From an uncultured Pseudomonadota bacterium (GTDB lineage Bacteria; Oederibacteriota; Muellerivitia; Muellerivitales; Muellerivitaceae): a stretch of DNA of 64,000 nucleotides. Where the stretch lies: positions 1,600,001 to 1,664,000 of the forward strand of contig CAWIIP010000002.1 in NCBI GenBank assembly GCA_963836235.1. The letters are read 5' to 3'. Numbering within the stretch: position 1 is the first letter of the stretch; each line of letters opens with the position of its first letter. This document shows positions 13,916 through 18,441 of the stretch, piece after piece. Under the pieces are notes generated by a model. The model worked only from the letters and a program-made list of their open reading frames with translations. It had not been told where the DNA came from and did not search any database. The translations under genes and the position numbers were made by a program.

Positions 13916-14500
13916 ATGTCCCGTATTTGTGTTTTCATCGATGGAAGCAATCTTTATTTCGCCCTCAAGCGTAATAATAAGATGACCCGGGTGGATTATT
14001 ACCAATTTTCACTCGCGCTCACGGGAGAGCGCAGAAAGCTGGTCCGAACTTACTATTACAACGCGGTGTTTGACGCGGCCCATTTTTCCGACAAGGCTAA
14101 AAGCCAGCAATCTTTTTTTGATTCCCTCGACCGTACGCCTTATTTGGAGCTTCGGCTCGGACGCATTATCCAAAACCGGGAAGGCCACCGAATGGAGAAG
14201 GGCGTGGATGTGCGCATGGCCGCCGACATGGTTTATTACGCCGCCCGGGATTTTTACGACACGGCCATCGTGGTGACCGAGGACCAGGATTTTTCCCCCG
14301 CGATGGGGCTGGTCAAGGAACTGGGCAAGCACGTGGAACTGGCGGTGTTTCCAGACGCTCAAAGCCGGGAAATGATCCGGGTAGCGGATAAGATTTTAAG
14401 TTTGGATGAAATCGTTAACGGCCAGGCGGCCCATATTTTCCCACCGTCCCAAAATGCGGAAGACCGCGCGCCGGACGCGGAAATGGCATTCGGCGTTTAA
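13916..14500 (+). CDS. NYN domain (LabA/DUF88, PIN-like) protein
   Basis: FIDGSNLY, EKGVDV and VTEDQDF motifs. Confidence 0.9.
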   Translation: MSRICVFIDGSNLYFALKRNNKMTRVDYYQFSLALTGERRKLVRTYYYNAVFDAAHFSDKAKSQQSFFDSLDRTPYLELRLGRIIQNREGHRMEKGVDVRMAADMVYYAARDFYDTAIVVTEDQDFSPAMGLVKELGKHVELAVFPDAQSREMIRVADKILSLDEIVNGQAAHIFPPSQNAEDRAPDAEMAFGV

Positions 14501-14509
14501 AAGGATGCT

Positions 14510-14640
14510 GAAAAAGTCTGAAAAACAGACTTTTTCCTTTATGCGAACGAGCCACGGGTAATAAAACCTATATTTTTAGTGGTTCGTTCCATTCCATGGC
14601 TGTCGACAAGGCGCTGAAAAATACATTTTCAGCGCCTTGT
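14510..14640. terminator. Cluster of three hairpins between convergent genes (bidirectional terminator or MITE remnant)
   Basis: GAAAAAGTCTG/CAGACTTTTTC; GAACGAGCCAC/GTGGTTCGTTC; perfect 15-bp stem ACAAGGCGCTGAAAA/TTTTCAGCGCCTTGT at 14606-14640. Confidence 0.55.
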
Positions 14641-14704
14641 TAAATTTTACAATCATTTAATTTTTGGAAAATATTTAAAAGTCCGCTTTGTGGACTTTTT
14701 GTTT

Positions 14705-15679
14705 TTAAGACAGTTTGTTTCTAAAAAGATCCAATTGTTTGTCTCCAAAAAGGGCCCTCCACCTCGTCCTCAACCTCCATTTTTCCCTGAAAAATTTTAT
14801 TTTTCCATAAAGCGATTCAATGTAGCTTTCCGGGGGATAAGCCCTGGAGCCGTAAAGCTTCAAGGTTTGTTCAAAAGCGGACCTGTCATATTTTTTTAGC
14901 ACATGATAATAGTAGCCTTTCACCACTTGTCCTCGAAGCCTCAGAACGTTGTAAACAAAATAATCCACCCCTATTTCAGCCGCCTTTTGAACCATTCCTT
15001 CGATCGCTTCATCAGTGTCGGTTACGAAGGGGATGATAGGCATGAGGTGGATACCGCAGGGGATTCCATGGGCCTTTAACCGGCGAAGGGCTTCGAGGCG
15101 CCTCTCAATAGGAACCGCGTGGGGTTCCAAAAATTTTTGTAAAACCGGATTCAAGGTGGTCAAGGTCATGGCCACGCCCCCATCCGCCCGGTCCACCACG
15201 TCCTTTAAAACGTCCAAGTCCCTCAAGACCAAATCCGACTTAGTCGAAAAAACAGCCGGCCAAGCGTATTTGGCCAAAAGTTTGAAAGCACCCCGCGCCA
15301 GACCGTATTTTTTTTCCGCGGGTTGGTAGGGATCGGTGGCGGCTCCTAGGCTGATCCAGTCCCTTTTCCGCCGGGGGTTTGAAAGTTCCAGTTCGAGAAC
15401 CTCCAACAGATTGACTTTGACCTGAATTTTCCTTTGGAAATCAAAAGAGTTTTGGAAACCCAGAAACCAATGGGTGTAGCGGGCGAAGCAAAAGGGGCAG
15501 CCATGGCGGCAACCTCGGTATAAGTTAAGGGTGTAGTAAAAAGGTTTGGAACTGTAAGGCAGCCGGGTGTGGTGAAGGGCGGATTTTACCTTTATTTCGA
15601 TGTATTCCACTTCCCGGGGATCATCATCCACTTCGGTATAAGTGGGCGAAAAAGAAGTTGAAAGGGGAGGTTCCATCAA
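14705..15679 (-). CDS. Radical SAM protein, SplB/Rv2578c-like (COG1533) putative DNA repair enzyme
   Basis: LNLYRGCRHGCPFCFAR (CxxxCxxC), TDPYQPAE, STKSDLVLRDLD and LEP motifs. Confidence 0.88.
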   Translation of the reverse strand: MMEPPLSTSFSPTYTEVDDDPREVEYIEIKVKSALHHTRLPYSSKPFYYTLNLYRGCRHGCPFCFARYTHWFLGFQNSFDFQRKIQVKVNLLEVLELELSNPRRKRDWISLGAATDPYQPAEKKYGLARGAFKLLAKYAWPAVFSTKSDLVLRDLDVLKDVVDRADGGVAMTLTTLNPVLQKFLEPHAVPIERRLEALRRLKAHGIPCGIHLMPIIPFVTDTDEAIEGMVQKAAEIGVDYFVYNVLRLRGQVVKGYYYHVLKKYDRSAFEQTLKLYGSRAYPPESYIESLYGKIKFFREKWRLRTRWRALFGDKQLDLFRNKLS

Positions 15680-15703
15680 TAAAACCGCCGGAAGGAAAAA
15701 CAG

Positions 15704-16210
15704 TTATTTGGTGAAGCTGGAGTTTCGATAAAAAAAGAAAAGGTTGGGGGAAAGTCCGCCCGACAGTTGAAGACTTTGATGGATTCGTTCGGCGGTTCGC
15801 AGAAAAGACTCTGTGGATTCAGAAAGTTTTTCGGAAGTAATCAATTTAATCCATCGTGGTTCCTCATCCCAAAATTCCCCCCCGCGGTCTCCGGTAGGCG
15901 CAGATTTTTCTTTCAGAAAGGTTAGAAATTCGGAAAGAGAAAAAGATCCTTTCAGGGTAACTCGGGTGGAAAGCCCCTTTGGCCAAATGAGAAAATCCAA
16001 AAGCTCATACTGTCCCAATAGCTCGCCTTTTAACAGCGACTGAACTAGATGGTGGGCGGCTGGAAGTTCCTTTAGCAACGGACGAGAAGATGCCGTTCGT
16101 AGCGCAATCTCGTAAGTGAAATTTTCTTTAGAGAAAGAATAACGAAAAGGTGTTTCCCGCGCTTGCGGAAGCAGGGGAACCGAATAATAAGGCATAGACA
16201 TCTCCACCAT
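15704..16210 (-). CDS. Hypothetical protein, probable inactive Y1/RAYT (IS200-like) transposase fold
   Basis: Colinear resemblance to RAYT blocks, but the HUH motif and catalytic Tyr are absent (see findings). Lies between lexA and the radical SAM gene with gaps of 30 and 24 nt. Confidence 0.55.
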   Translation of the reverse strand: MVEMSMPYYSVPLLPQARETPFRYSFSKENFTYEIALRTASSRPLLKELPAAHHLVQSLLKGELLGQYELLDFLIWPKGLSTRVTLKGSFSLSEFLTFLKEKSAPTGDRGGEFWDEEPRWIKLITSEKLSESTESFLRTAERIHQSLQLSGGLSPNLFFFYRNSSFTK

Positions 16211-16240
16211 TATTTTTAAGTTTCAAAGTCAAAACGTCCA

Positions 16241-16858
16241 TTAACGGGGGCTAAAGACACCCACGACTTTCCCGATGATCCGGAAATCCTGGCCCTCGGA
16301 AATCACGATAGGTGAATATTTTGGGTTAGCGGGTTCCAAAATCACTTTAGAACTGGTCTTGCGGAAGGTCTTTACCGTGGCTTCACCTTCAATGAGCGCT
16401 ACTACGATTTCCCCGGGCGAGGCATGGGTGGTCTGCTGCACGATCACCTTGTCGCCGGGAAGAATATGGGCGTTCAACATCGAATCGCCCCGAACCGTCA
16501 GGGCGAAAAGGTTTCGACCACCGCGCGCCATAGAAGGGTCCACGACCATGGTTCCCTCGCGGTTTTCCTCGGCCAACAAGGGTAAGCCAGCCGCTACCTT
16601 TCCTAAGATAGGAATGGAAACGCCGACGGAGGAATCGTCCACGATTTTCAACCCGCGGGCCGTATGATCCTCCCGTTCGAGATAGCCTTTTTCCTCGAGG
16701 GCCAGTAAATGTTTTCGGGCGCTTTGGGGTGAGTTCCATTTGAAGTGCCGCATGACTTCCCGCACCGTCGGAGGACGGTGGGTTTGGGTGAGATGTTCTT
16801 GGACGTAGTTCAGCACATCCCTTTGAATGTTGGTCAAGGTTTCGTCGGATGGCGCCAT
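16241..16858 (-). CDS. lexA: SOS repressor LexA
   Basis: wHTH PPTVREV...SPQSARKHLLALEEKGYL, cleavage site VAAG, catalytic Ser (GDSM) and Lys (TVKTF). ATG 16858 has a GGAGG RBS. Confidence 0.96.
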   Translation of the reverse strand: MAPSDETLTNIQRDVLNYVQEHLTQTHRPPTVREVMRHFKWNSPQSARKHLLALEEKGYLEREDHTARGLKIVDDSSVGVSIPILGKVAAGLPLLAEENREGTMVVDPSMARGGRNLFALTVRGDSMLNAHILPGDKVIVQQTTHASPGEIVVALIEGEATVKTFRKTSSKVILEPANPKYSPIVISEGQDFRIIGKVVGVFSPR

Positions 16859-16882
16859 CTTGTTCCTCCGGTTAAAATTTTC

Positions 16883-16932
16883 TTGAAAAAGAATACGGCT
16901 GTATACTAGTATACGAGTGTATTCTTCGTCAA
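16883..16932. promoter_or_regulatory. Symmetric divergent lexA/radC promoter with two putative LexA operators
   Basis: TTGAAA-AAGAATAC-GGCT-GTATACTAGTATAC-GAGT-GTATTCTT-CGTCAA. Boxes at 16891-16906 and 16909-16924. TTGA(A/C)N-N18-TAGTAT on both strands. Confidence 0.75.
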
Positions 16933-16953
16933 GCAAAAAAAGGGGTGCAAATC

Positions 16954-17682
16954 ATGGTGGAATTGGACATACAAAAAAACCTGAGCGTGGAAATCGCGAG
17001 GGAAAAGGGACTCTCCTACCAGGGACATCGCCGGCGCCTCAAGGAAAAATACGCCGCCGCGGGGGTTTCGGCCCTCCAGGATTACGAGCTTCTCGAACTG
17101 CTGCTTTCCTTTTCCATCCCGCACCGGGACACCAAACCTTACGCGAAAAAGCTGTTGGCGGTTTTTCAAAACGTCCGCCGGATATTGGAGGCGGATTCAG
17201 CCTCCCTCCAAACCCTTGGGGAATTGCCCCCCCAAAGCGCCTTGCATTTTAAGGCTATCGGGGACCTATACCGTCTGGCGAACCAAGAGGGTTTCAAGCG
17301 GGGAAGGATGATCACGAGCCCCGAGGACGTGGCTTCCTTCCTAAAGGAACAAATCGGCAGCCGTCCCCGGGAGGTTTTTACCGCCATCTTCCTGGACCAC
17401 CGGAACCACTTGTTGGCCTTCGAGCATCTACAGGAAGGAACCGTCGATCATACGGCGGTCTATCCCCGCGAGATTCTCAAGCGCGCCCTGGAACTGCACG
17501 CCACGGGCCTGATCCTCTCCCACAACCATCCGGCGGGAAGTTTGGAACCATCCGAGGGCGACAAGCAATTGACGAGGCAGGTTTTGGCCGCCGCCCGGGC
17601 CATGGGCATCACGGTGCATGATCATCTCATCTTAACCACCGAGGGGCACTTTTCCTTCCGGCAGGCGGGATTGTTGGTTTAG
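16954..17682 (+). CDS. radC: RadC/UPF0758 JAB-domain protein
   Basis: GHRRRLKEK, YELLELLL, GTVDHTAVYPRE, HNHPAG..PS..D and DHLI motifs. Start uncertain (16945/16954/16987). Confidence 0.93.
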   Translation: MVELDIQKNLSVEIAREKGLSYQGHRRRLKEKYAAAGVSALQDYELLELLLSFSIPHRDTKPYAKKLLAVFQNVRRILEADSASLQTLGELPPQSALHFKAIGDLYRLANQEGFKRGRMITSPEDVASFLKEQIGSRPREVFTAIFLDHRNHLLAFEHLQEGTVDHTAVYPREILKRALELHATGLILSHNHPAGSLEPSEGDKQLTRQVLAAARAMGITVHDHLILTTEGHFSFRQAGLLV

Positions 17683-17727: not shown

Positions 17728-18066
17728 ATGGAAGAAGCCGCGATGAAAGTTGTTTTGATGGTTGATCTTTTTCAAAAGGTCAAAAAGCGTGTGCCTCAAC
17801 ATTGGCGGGAAGTGAAGGATTGCATCTCCGGATTGGGATACCCGGTGGAACTCTCGGAGTTTCATGAGCTGAAGATTGAGGCGCTGTCCCACCAAAAATT
17901 ACTGATCGAATATTCGGTTTTCACCGGCGAAAACGAATGGACGCCCTGTCGTAAATTGGAAATGACTTCTTTTGACGACGAGTTAACGAGGCGGGATGGG
18001 GTTCTTTCCAAATTGAAACTGGAGAGCTTTGACCCAACCTGGGTGGAAGAATTGCAATTTTCATAA
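17728..18066 (+). CDS. Hypothetical protein, paralog of 18088-18441
   Basis: AAGGAGG RBS. Aligns by eye with the next ORF. Confidence 0.7.
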   Translation: MEEAAMKVVLMVDLFQKVKKRVPQHWREVKDCISGLGYPVELSEFHELKIEALSHQKLLIEYSVFTGENEWTPCRKLEMTSFDDELTRRDGVLSKLKLESFDPTWVEELQFS

Positions 18067-18087: not shown

Positions 18088-18441
18088 ATGGAAAGGGATA
18101 AGAATCTTTATAAGGTCTTGATGATGTCGGGTATTTTTCGCTTGGATCACGGCTGCTGGCCGCAAAGCGCCGCCGAGCTGAAGGTTTTTACCGAGCAAAA
18201 GGGATGGAACCTGGATTTCTCGCCCTATTACAAGCTGACATTCCAAACCGACGACTGGCGCTGTCTGGTGGTTGAAGTGTCGTGGCTGGAAGATGGGGAT
18301 TGGCTGACGCGCCGCCGGTTTGAAATTGAGCCTTATTTCTTCGAGAAGGGTTTGGAACAGAGCATCCCTTTGAGGATTCGCTCCCGGGCATTGCCCCCGC
18401 ACAAGGCGGAGATTAAAACCTATTGCCCTTTGGCTTCCTAA
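18088..18441 (+). CDS. Hypothetical protein, paralog of 17728-18066
   Basis: GGGAGG RBS. Aligns by eye with the previous ORF. Confidence 0.7.
   Translation: MERDKNLYKVLMMSGIFRLDHGCWPQSAAELKVFTEQKGWNLDFSPYYKLTFQTDDWRCLVVEVSWLEDGDWLTRRRFEIEPYFFEKGLEQSIPLRIRSRALPPHKAEIKTYCPLAS

What the first reader, a model, noticed from the sequence alone, without database searches (positions are those of the whole stretch)
14705..16858. lexA operon containing a catalytically dead RAYT/Y1-transposase-fold protein and an SplB-like radical SAM enzyme
Seen: lexA, a 168-aa unknown gene and a COG1533 radical SAM gene are co-oriented with 30- and 24-nt gaps. By eye, the unknown protein follows the block order of REP-associated tyrosine transposases (IS200/TnpA Y1 fold). 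RYSFSKENFTYEIALRTASSRPLL matches Y-D-Y-S..YFITICT..R.PLF; YELLDFLIWPKGLS matches ELD.FVIMPNHIH; SLSEFLTFLKEKSA matches SL..II..FKS..T; FWDEE..IKLITSEK...ESFLRT matches WQR.YY-H-IR.E......YI..NP. Both HUH histidines and the catalytic Tyr-I-x-x-NP are replaced. Established: HUH/Y1 proteins bind ssDNA hairpins, and SplB-like radical SAMs are often LexA-regulated. Inference: a domesticated, nuclease-dead transposase reused as an ssDNA/hairpin-binding or scaffold partner in an SOS repair module. I do not know this architecture as described.
Basis: partly seen in the sequence, partly recalled or inferred. Interest (0 to 1): 0.82.

Follow-up and report, generated by a model that had tools for sequence, protein, structure and literature searches.

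The report
Dead transposase-fold gene in lexA operon
A small gene wedged between the DNA-damage repressor gene lexA and a radical-SAM gene encodes a protein shaped like a single-strand DNA transposase but without its cutting residues; it is conserved yet dispensable in one family of an uncultured phylum, and its job is unknown.

Summary
On the minus strand lie lexA (16241-16858), an unknown gene X (15704-16195/16210) and a radical-SAM gene (14705-15679), with gaps of 30 and 24 nt, one promoter and one terminator.

X occurs only in one family of candidate division FCPU426. It is single-copy and always sits directly after the only lexA (23 of 23 loci). dN/dS is 0.08-0.32, and the gene has been lost repeatedly.

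The operon sits behind a double GWATAC-N4-GTATWC box that also precedes recA, dinB and umuDC, so X is very probably SOS-induced.

The claimed partnership with the radical-SAM enzyme is not supported, because each gene occurs without the other. ssDNA binding is untested, and X's near-neutral pI argues weakly against it.

Verdict: a real, inactivated transposase-fold SOS gene. It is a new variant of a known kind, of moderate interest.

The parts
16891..16924 (.). Double SOS (LexA) operator: GAATAC-N4-GTATAC-TA-GTATAC-N4-GTATTC. It lies between divergent lexA and radC.
   Evidence: The hexamers are conserved while the N4 spacers vary. The full double box is seen in 14 of 16 upstream regions shown; the other 2 have it displaced further upstream. 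It is also kept in a distant lineage, L104. Genome-wide there are 10 GWATAC-N4-GTATWC sites, against a mean of 0.82 for 360 permuted palindromes. Other sites precede recA, a dinB-like gene, two umuD-like genes (one followed by umuC-like) and dprA.
16903..16932 (-). Promoter-like site for lexA: -35 TTGACG, 18-nt spacer, -10 TAGTAT. It overlaps the operator.
   Evidence: A mirror site on the + strand (16883-16912) faces radC.
16241..16858 (-). lexA, 205 aa. It is the only LexA in the genome.
   Evidence: Pfam and NCBIfam matches. It is the single LexA_DNA_bind match in G000. A89-A90-G91, S126 and K163 are invariant in 26 sequences. Their roles as cleavage site and Ser/Lys dyad are recalled knowledge.
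15704..16210 (-). Gene X: Y1/HUH-transposase-fold protein lacking the catalytic residues. Probable start at 16195 (163 aa); the longest ORF starts at 16210 (168 aa).
   Evidence: No hit in Pfam, NCBIfam, PADLOC or PHROGs. AF2 model has pLDDT 87.1 and pTM 0.77. Family alignment A1 is. dN/dS is 0.08-0.32.
14705..15679 (-). Radical-SAM gene (324 aa) of the Rv2578c/PA0069 type, with a CxxxCxxC motif (CRHGCPFC).
   Evidence: No significant match to any solved structure by sequence.
14677..14699 (-). Terminator-like hairpin directly after the rSAM stop; it ends the operon.
16945..17682 (+). Divergent radC (RadC-like JAB) gene sharing the operator region.
   Evidence: Pfam RadC 1.6e-41. The divergent arrangement is conserved.

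Best explanation
X is a lineage-restricted, single-copy, chromosomally fixed descendant of a Y1 (IS200/IS605-TnpA or RAYT type) HUH transposase that can no longer cut DNA.

The two metal-binding histidines are replaced by Gly75 and Ser/Phe/Leu77. The position inferred for the nucleophilic tyrosine is a nearly invariant Phe132.

X is co-transcribed with the cell's only lexA from a LexA-operated promoter, so it is made when DNA damage lifts LexA repression.

Where present it is kept by purifying selection, but it evolves several times faster than its neighbours, has been lost repeatedly, and does not need the downstream radical-SAM enzyme.

Most likely mechanism (inferred, about 0.3 on its own): a non-catalytic recognition module. 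It would use the old transposase surface to bind structured or single-stranded DNA exposed during the SOS response. The rebuilt former active site (invariant Glu30, Arg79, Trp110, nearly invariant Glu113) would act as a structural plug or ligand site.

Shown here: the fold, the loss of catalytic residues, synteny, selection, the SOS operator, and independence from the rSAM. Inferred: transposase ancestry, SOS induction, and any binding activity.
For: Fold:
- AF2 model has pLDDT 87.1 and pTM 0.77, with topology b-a-b-b-a-b-a-b.
- Foldseek pdb ranks 1-30 are all Y1 transposases, best E 5.1e-4.
- Unbiased scan of 48,161 chains: the top 3 are Y1 transposases (11.3, 10.6, 9.9); the next score is 8.5.

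Dead site:
- In 19 genuine PF01797 domains from related genomes the only invariant columns are the two HUH His and the Tyr.
- In the one register hhalign finds, these His align to invariant Gly75 and to position 77 (S/F/L/Y), with Pro73 on the conserved Pro and Tyr29-Glu30 on Tyr-His.
- No His, and no helix Tyr, is conserved in 22 members.

Real gene:
- Profile hits in 22 of 30 family-f1 relatives plus G000, and in 0 of 68 genomes of 22 other families.
- One copy per genome.
- dN/dS 0.078-0.322 in the 13 computable of 15 same-genus pairs. For comparison, lexA is 0.022-0.118 and the rSAM 0.042-0.159.

lexA link:
- lexA is directly upstream in 22 of 22 intact loci, in the broken G072 copy, and in the distant metagenome locus L104.

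SOS control:
- Double operator. There are 10 genome sites against a null mean of 0.82, lying before recA, a dinB-like gene, umuD/umuC-like genes and dprA.
- No promoter-like site in the lexA-X or X-rSAM gaps, and a terminator after the rSAM.
Against: - Sequence gives no significant link to Y1 transposases. hhalign P is 0.055-0.21 and 0.066. PF01797 did not find X in the genome at E<=1 nor in any of 22 members at E<=10.
- The ferredoxin-like core is a common arrangement, and the margin over the next fold is only 1.4-2.9 Z.
- The residue mapping of the Tyr position rests on counting from strand 4, not on a superposition; no model coordinates were available.
- X proteins have pI 5.1-9.6, most of them below 7. 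Twenty genuine Y1 domains have pI 8.0-10.3. This weakens a DNA-binding role.
- X has been lost or broken in at least 9 of 31 family genomes, including the sister species, where only about 33 codons remain. Any role is therefore dispensable.
- SOS induction is inferred from a motif. No RNA data were found.
Confidence: 0.5

Rival explanations
1. X is an SOS-induced protein-binding modulator, not a DNA binder. The transposase-like fold has been reused to bind LexA, RecA or the division machinery, as a functional analogue of small, lineage-specific SOS genes that sit next to lexA, such as cell-division inhibitors.
For: - pI is near neutral, unlike genuine Y1 domains.
- X is the fastest-evolving gene of a conserved locus: 30-60% identity, against 73-92% for LexA.
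- It is always the gene right after lexA.
- No SulA-family (PF03846) match was found in the genome.
- No catalytic-type residue set is conserved.
- That SOS division inhibitors are small, fast-evolving and often adjacent to lexA is recalled knowledge, not a result here.
Against: - No partner is identified.
- The fold gives no hint of such a role.
- LexA does without X in at least 7 family genomes.
- Adjacency to lexA is also what plain co-regulation would give.
Confidence: 0.2
2. X is not derived from a transposase at all. It is an unrelated ferredoxin-like alpha/beta protein whose resemblance to Y1 transposases is convergent or too old to matter, so 'catalytically dead transposase' is a misnomer.
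For: - No significant sequence or profile similarity.
- No inverted repeats or hairpins flank the gene.
- X presence does not track resident PF01797 genes. Five X-bearing genomes have none, and five X-less genomes have some.
Against: - Every one of the top 16 entries in the second look, and the top 3 of 48,161 chains, are Y1 transposases.
- The best match, 4er8, covers residues 24-164, including the C-terminal helix and strand.
- The only hhalign register places the conserved Pro-x-Gly turn exactly on Pro-Asn-His, and 'SLSEFL..LK' on the '.LS..M..L' helix.
Confidence: 0.2
3. X is an obligate partner or scaffold of the downstream radical-SAM enzyme (the reader's module). It would, for example, deliver the enzyme to lesions in ssDNA.
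For: - X and this rSAM orthologue both occur only in family f1, both downstream of lexA. They may have arrived together.
- 15 of 22 intact loci keep lexA-X-rSAM.
- SplB-type rSAM genes pair with small non-catalytic proteins in SOS operons of other bacteria (PMC3765255, passages).
Against: - Seven genomes with intact X (G024, G012, G022, G016, G073, G017, G011; 86-97% complete) and G072 have no rSAM homologue at E<=1e-10 anywhere. G000 served as positive control.
- Six genomes keep lexA-rSAM without X.
Confidence: 0.05
4. X is a decaying transposase remnant with no function.
For: - Repeated loss.
- A frameshifted copy in G072.
- A 33-codon stump in G001.
- The highest dN/dS of the locus.
Against: - Intact ORFs of 150-170 aa in 22 genomes of 13 genera, and in deeper lineages at 25-34% identity.
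- dN/dS is well below 1 in all 13 computable pairs.
- Six columns are invariant and ten nearly invariant.
Confidence: 0.03

Closest known systems
REP-associated tyrosine transposase, TnpA(REP)/RAYT (E. coli, PDB 4er8)
   Different: - X has no HUH histidines and no helix tyrosine.
- X has no PF01797 match.
- No flanking hairpins or inverted repeats.
- pI is near neutral.
- X sits inside the lexA operon.
IS200/IS605 TnpA Y1 transposases (IS608, ISDra2, Sulfolobus; PDB 2vhg, 2xma, 2ec2)
   Different: X is not mobile (one copy, fixed locus). It lacks the catalytic residues that are the only invariant columns in 19 genuine family members. Whether it forms the obligate dimer could not be tested.
Small lineage-specific SOS genes co-transcribed with or adjacent to lexA (e.g. 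sulA after lexA in pseudomonads; recalled, not from a call)
   Same: Same position right after lexA, under the LexA operator. Small, cytoplasmic, fast-evolving and dispensable.
   Different: The fold is unrelated, and there is no evidence of any effect on division. PF03846 is not found in this genome.
SOS operons pairing an SplB-like radical-SAM gene with a small non-catalytic protein (standalone ImuB-C; PMC3765255, passages)
   Same: SOS context, with a small accessory gene next to a COG1533-type rSAM. splB and radC are reported as SOS-regulated in several phyla (PMC8565304, passages).
   Different: X has no Pfam match to any such domain. X and the rSAM occur independently.

Membership tests
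Y1_Tnp (PF01797): IS200/IS605 TnpA and RAYT | Significant match to the family profile | tested here: not met
   No Pfam hit at E<=1 for X. The PF01797 genome scan at E<=1 finds 3 other genes but not X. 0 of 22 family members hit at E<=10. hhalign against 19 genuine domains gives P 0.066.
Y1_Tnp (PF01797): IS200/IS605 TnpA and RAYT | Ferredoxin-like b-a-b-b-a-b core followed by a C-terminal helix | tested here: met
Y1_Tnp (PF01797): IS200/IS605 TnpA and RAYT | HUH motif (two metal-binding His on strand 3) | tested here: not met
   The aligned positions are invariant Gly75 and S/F/L/Y77. No His is conserved in the 22 members. The same positions are invariant His in 19 genuine domains.
Y1_Tnp (PF01797): IS200/IS605 TnpA and RAYT | Nucleophilic Tyr on the helix after strand 4 | tested here: not met
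   No conserved Tyr in helix 122-145. Nearly invariant Phe132 lies 12 residues after strand 4, the same offset as Tyr119 in genuine domains. The exact equivalence is inferred, with no superposition available.
Y1_Tnp (PF01797): IS200/IS605 TnpA and RAYT | Mobility or REP association (multiple copies, subterminal hairpins) | tested here: not met
   One copy per genome at one locus. No inverted repeats within 15600-16320.
Y1_Tnp (PF01797): IS200/IS605 TnpA and RAYT | Obligate homodimer | not testable with these tools
LexA (TIGR00498) | N-terminal LexA HTH plus S24 peptidase domain with cleavage site and Ser/Lys dyad | tested here: met
   A89-A90-G91, S126 and K163 are invariant in 26 sequences. 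Assignment of their roles is recalled.
SOS regulon (LexA-repressed genes) | LexA operator at the promoter | tested here: met
   Double palindromic box overlapping the -35/-10. The same motif lies before recA, a dinB-like gene, umuD/umuC-like genes and dprA, and is enriched 10 sites against a null mean of 0.82. LexA binding itself is not tested.
Radical SAM superfamily (PF04055) | Profile match and CxxxCxxC cluster motif | tested here: met
   E 5.7e-13, 49.8 bits against cut-off 29.5. CRHGCPFC is present in the translation.
Spore photoproduct lyase (PF20903) / Rv2578c equivalog (NF038135) | Score above the curated cut-off | tested here: not met
   SPL: E 0.14, 11.4 bits against 27. NF038135: 211 bits against 430. 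NF033668: 200 bits against 360. No solved-structure relative by sequence. It is a relative of these families, not a shown member.

The most novel reading that the evidence does not exclude
X is an exapted transposase that has become a regulatory part of the SOS switch itself. Made together with LexA, it would use the old hairpin-binding surface to recognise the large palindromic operator when it extrudes as a hairpin or cruciform (the 34-nt double box folds as ssDNA, z -2.9). Alternatively it would bind LexA or RecA directly. Either way it would tune how fast the response shuts off. That would be a transposase-derived component of a core stress circuit.
Probability: 0.1. Interest if true: 0.75.

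Novelty: new variant of a known kind. Interest (0 to 1): 0.45.

Why it matters
Domesticated transposases are well known in eukaryotes but rarely documented in bacteria. The one survey of Y1/HuH proteins whose passages I read set aside sequences lacking the core motifs as probably non-functional (PMC6006769, passage).

Here a motif-less, transposase-shaped protein is kept by selection at a fixed place in the lexA operon. That makes it a clean candidate for exaptation of a Y1 fold into the DNA-damage response.

The work also gives a testable SOS operator, GWATAC-N4-GTATWC, and a small regulon for candidate division FCPU426. My searches found no description of the SOS system in this phylum.

The limits are real. 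The family is confined to one family-level clade of uncultured bacteria, the gene is dispensable, and its activity is unknown.

Tried and rejected
My own error.
- In some searches the lexA query was translated one base out of frame (16857 instead of 16858).
- This produced a false 'LexA only 43-52% identical, dN/dS > 1' signal. I found the cause and corrected it (LexA 73-92% identical, dN/dS 0.02-0.12).
- The positions of the lexA hits in those calls were right. The identities and the 'LexA and X co-evolve fast' idea were artefacts and are dropped.

X as regulator of resident Y1 transposases: rejected.
- Five X-bearing genomes (G003, G006, G018, G019, G020) have no PF01797 hit at E<=1e-5.
- Five X-less genomes do have one.

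Searches that found nothing.
- Fused forms: the 'longer' search found none, which is weak evidence.
- Sequence search of solved structures with the X profile found nothing at E<=10.
- A genuine Y1 domain of this genome also found nothing at E<=0.001, so this search could not map residues.
- PADLOC and PHROGs: no hit.
- Rfam: no match in 14400-17200.
- RNA evidence: no RNA holder listed. Five runs hold small shares (0.06-0.14) only.

Outside family f1.
- rSAM paralogues of 34-41% identity are not next to lexA in 0 of 9 loci.
- So no older lexA-rSAM operon was found into which X could have inserted.

Literature searches for a dead Y1 transposase in an SOS operon.
- LexA / radical SAM / splB / SOS.
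- Y1 transposase / HUH / catalytically inactive / domesticated / LexA.
- IS200 / TnpA / SOS response / LexA / domestication.
- FCPU426.
- Rv2578c / PA0069 / COG1533.
- None described this family. Only open-access text is covered.
- Supplements are closed. The supplementary lists of PMC6006769 might hold motif-less sequences that I could not see.

- The search of earlier findings.
- The protein-atlas search.
- Complex prediction for LexA + X (nothing was folded).
- Fold search 'viral'.
- A second structure prediction on the distant subgroup A4.
- As a result, dimerisation, X-LexA binding and an independent model of the distant members remain untested.
Full report
WHAT IS THERE

On the minus strand of the window lie three co-oriented ORFs:
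- lexA, 16241-16858
- an unknown gene X, whose longest ORF is 15704-16210 (168 aa)
- a radical-SAM gene, 14705-15679

LexA carries LexA_DNA_bind (1.4e-19) and Peptidase_S24 (1.9e-32) and matches TIGR00498 at 2e-60. It is the only LexA_DNA_bind match in the 3.97-Mb genome.

The radical-SAM protein matches PF04055 (5.7e-13) and has a CRHGCPFC motif. It is closest to the Rv2578c and PA0069 NCBIfam families, but its scores are below their cut-offs (211 against 430 bits; 200 against 360). Its match to Pfam SPL is E 0.14. It has no sequence relative among solved structures. 'SplB-like' is therefore a family-level label, not a shown membership.

Flanking genes are a divergent radC (RadC 1.6e-41) and a convergent NYN-domain gene.

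X probably starts at ATG 16195, giving 163 aa:
- a GGTGGAG Shine-Dalgarno lies 6 nt upstream
- homologues begin at the aligned Met
- the stored gene call P0029 is 163 aa

OPERON AND REGULATION

A sigma-70-like promoter (-35 TTGACG, 18 nt, -10 TAGTAT; 16932-16903, minus strand) precedes lexA. No promoter-like site falls in the two short gaps, and a terminator hairpin (14699-14677) follows the rSAM stop.

The promoter is overlapped by a 34-nt palindrome, GAATAC-N4-GTATAC-TA-GTATAC-N4-GTATTC (window 16891-16924).
- In 14 of 16 upstream regions from related genomes the hexamers are conserved while the N4 spacers vary.
- In the other two the element lies further upstream, behind an insertion.
- A distant lineage keeps both boxes with a longer linker.

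Genome-wide, GWATAC-N4-GTATWC occurs 10 times. That is the maximum among 360 palindromes built from permuted half-sites (mean 0.82, median 0).

Besides the two lexA/radC boxes, sites lie just upstream of:
- recA
- a dinB-like Y-family polymerase gene
- two umuD-like S24 genes, one followed by a umuC-like gene
- dprA
- two genes without Pfam matches

One further site has no close gene.

This is a classical SOS regulon, so the motif is very probably the LexA box of this organism, and lexA-X-rSAM is an autoregulated SOS operon. LexA binding and induction are inferred, not shown. No RNA run was found.

In the literature, splB (COG1533) and radC are reported as SOS-regulated in several phyla (PMC8565304, passages). 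SplB-like rSAM genes are reported in SOS operons (PMC3765255, passages).

WHO HAS X

Record titles of related contigs name candidate division FCPU426.

- A profile of X found the gene in 22 of 30 relatives of the same family (f1) plus the window's genome. It found none in 68 genomes of the 22 other families of the phylum.
- A scan of 1.84 billion representative proteins found only 16.
- The 5.8-billion-sequence collection gave 30 clusters, all 'hypothetical protein' where named and none with a precomputed Pfam domain.
- No longer, fused form was found.
- There is one copy per genome, always at the same locus.

In the 22 intact loci (G000 plus 21 relatives) lexA lies directly upstream in 22 of 22. 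The rSAM follows in 15 of 22.

The seven genomes without it at the locus are G024, G012, G022, G016, G073, G017 and G011 (86-97% complete). None has a homologue of this rSAM anywhere at E<=1e-10, with G000 as positive control.

Conversely, X is missing from several genomes that keep the locus:
- G009, G013, G015, G023 and G071 have lexA followed directly by the rSAM.
- G010 has lexA alone.
- In G001, the sister species (LexA 97%, rSAM 90% identical), only about the first 33 codons of X remain before the rSAM.
- G072 carries a copy split by one frameshift.
- G007 (85% complete) gave no lexA or radC hit, so its state is unknown.

A metagenome contig with a 34%-identical X shows radC<>lexA-X<NYN.

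The orthologous rSAM is also confined to f1 (20 of 30). Other families have only paralogues of 34-41% identity, none next to lexA in 9 loci.

SELECTION

X is the fastest-evolving gene of the locus:

| Gene | Identity to the window's protein |
|---|---|
| X | 30-60% |
| LexA | 73-92% |
| rSAM | 66-86% |
| radC | 58-86% |
| NYN | 70-94% |

Nei-Gojobori dN/dS was computed in 15 same-genus pairs:

| Gene | dN/dS |
|---|---|
| X | 0.078-0.322 (13 computable, 2 saturated) |
| lexA | 0.022-0.118 |
| rSAM | 0.042-0.159 |

X is thus a real gene under moderate purifying selection, yet dispensable.

WHAT X LOOKS LIKE

X has no hit in Pfam, NCBIfam, PADLOC or PHROGs. No member of the 22-sequence alignment hits PF01797 even at E<=10.

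The AlphaFold2 model built on that alignment has pLDDT 87.1 and pTM 0.77. Its order of elements is b1-a1-b2-b3-a2-b4-a3-b5.

- Foldseek against the PDB puts Y1 transposases at ranks 1-30 (best E 5.1e-4).
- A Foldseek-independent scan of 48,161 chains again ranks three Y1 transposases first (11.3, 10.6, 9.9), with the next score at 8.5.

The fold claim is therefore supported, with a modest margin over generic ferredoxin-like folds.

Profile-profile comparison with genuine Y1 domains from related genomes is not significant (P 0.055-0.21; 0.066).
- Tyr29-Glu30 on Tyr-His of strand 1
- Pro73 on the conserved Pro
- invariant Gly75 and position 77 (S/F/L/Y) on the two HUH histidines
- 'SLSEFL' on the following helix

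As a control, in 19 genuine PF01797 domains the only invariant columns are those two His and the Tyr.

In X no His is conserved, and the helix after strand 4 (122-145) has no conserved Tyr. Nearly invariant Phe132 lies at the same offset from strand 4 as the catalytic Tyr. This last mapping is inferred.

The residues invariant or nearly invariant across the whole family (Tyr29, Glu30, Trp72, Gly75, Arg79, Trp110, Glu113, Phe132) cluster on the strands and loops that form the transposase active site. This suggests a rebuilt site rather than a decayed one (inference).

FUNCTION

- X cannot be an HUH nuclease.
- It is not mobile, and no inverted repeats flank it.
- Its presence does not track resident PF01797 genes.
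- DNA or hairpin binding is what the fold is known for. However, X proteins have pI 5.1-9.6, most below 7, against 8.0-10.3 for 20 genuine domains.

I therefore give the non-catalytic DNA-structure-binding reading only about 0.3 on its own. A protein-binding modulator gets about 0.2.

COMPARISON AND NOVELTY

X works, at most, like the DNA-recognition half of a RAYT or IS200 transposase. It is not a member of PF01797, because four defining features were tested and not met: profile match, HUH, Tyr, and mobility or REP association.

My literature searches found no description of this family or of an SOS system in FCPU426. The HuH survey PMC6006769 excluded motif-less sequences as probably non-functional (passage).

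I class X as a new variant of a known kind and score interest at 0.45. It is a neat case of probable exaptation into the lexA operon. It is also clade-restricted, dispensable, and without a demonstrated activity.

Noticed in passing
window 16891-16924; genome G000 sites C2:347514, C2:848186, C2:1023193, C4:115981, C4:149011, C4:214143, C4:802029, C5:148054: Candidate LexA box of FCPU426: GWATAC-N4-GTATWC. There are 10 sites against a null mean of 0.82. They lie before recA, a dinB-like gene, two umuD-like genes (one with umuC-like), dprA and lexA/radC. Two more lie before genes with no Pfam match (151 aa at C2:847670-848125; 88 aa at C5:147743-148009). My searches found no published SOS motif for this phylum.
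   Followed up: partly
L107 (G001:C4) about 1372-1470: In the sister species, most of X (about 430 nt) is deleted. About 33 N-terminal codons remain between lexA (97% identical) and the rSAM (90%). radC is also missing from that locus.
   Followed up: partly
L109 (G072:C11) 917-1350: This X copy is split into two frames by a single frameshift near residue 105. It could be a pseudogene or an assembly error in a MAG.
   Followed up: no
G000 C2:2047725, C2:1842566, C5:264042 (L013-L015): The genome carries three genuine PF01797 proteins of about 313-320 aa, with HUH and Tyr intact and a long C-terminal extension. They resemble the class-2 TnpA(REP)-like group with extra C-terminal domains described in PMC6006769.
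   Followed up: no
window 17728-18066 and 18088-18441 (+): Two tandem small ORFs (112 and 117 aa) lie next to radC, neither with a Pfam match. In relatives they cross-hit each other at 20-34% identity, so they look like diverged paralogues. Some relatives keep only one.
   Followed up: no
L047 and L050, upstream of lexA: In two relatives about 100 nt are inserted between the SOS boxes and the lexA start. In G005 about 270 nt separate X and the rSAM. These may be small inserted elements.
   Followed up: no
window 16885-16935 (-): As single-stranded DNA the operator palindrome folds into a hairpin (-6.5 kcal/mol, z -2.9; 2 of 200 shuffles fold as well).
   Followed up: no
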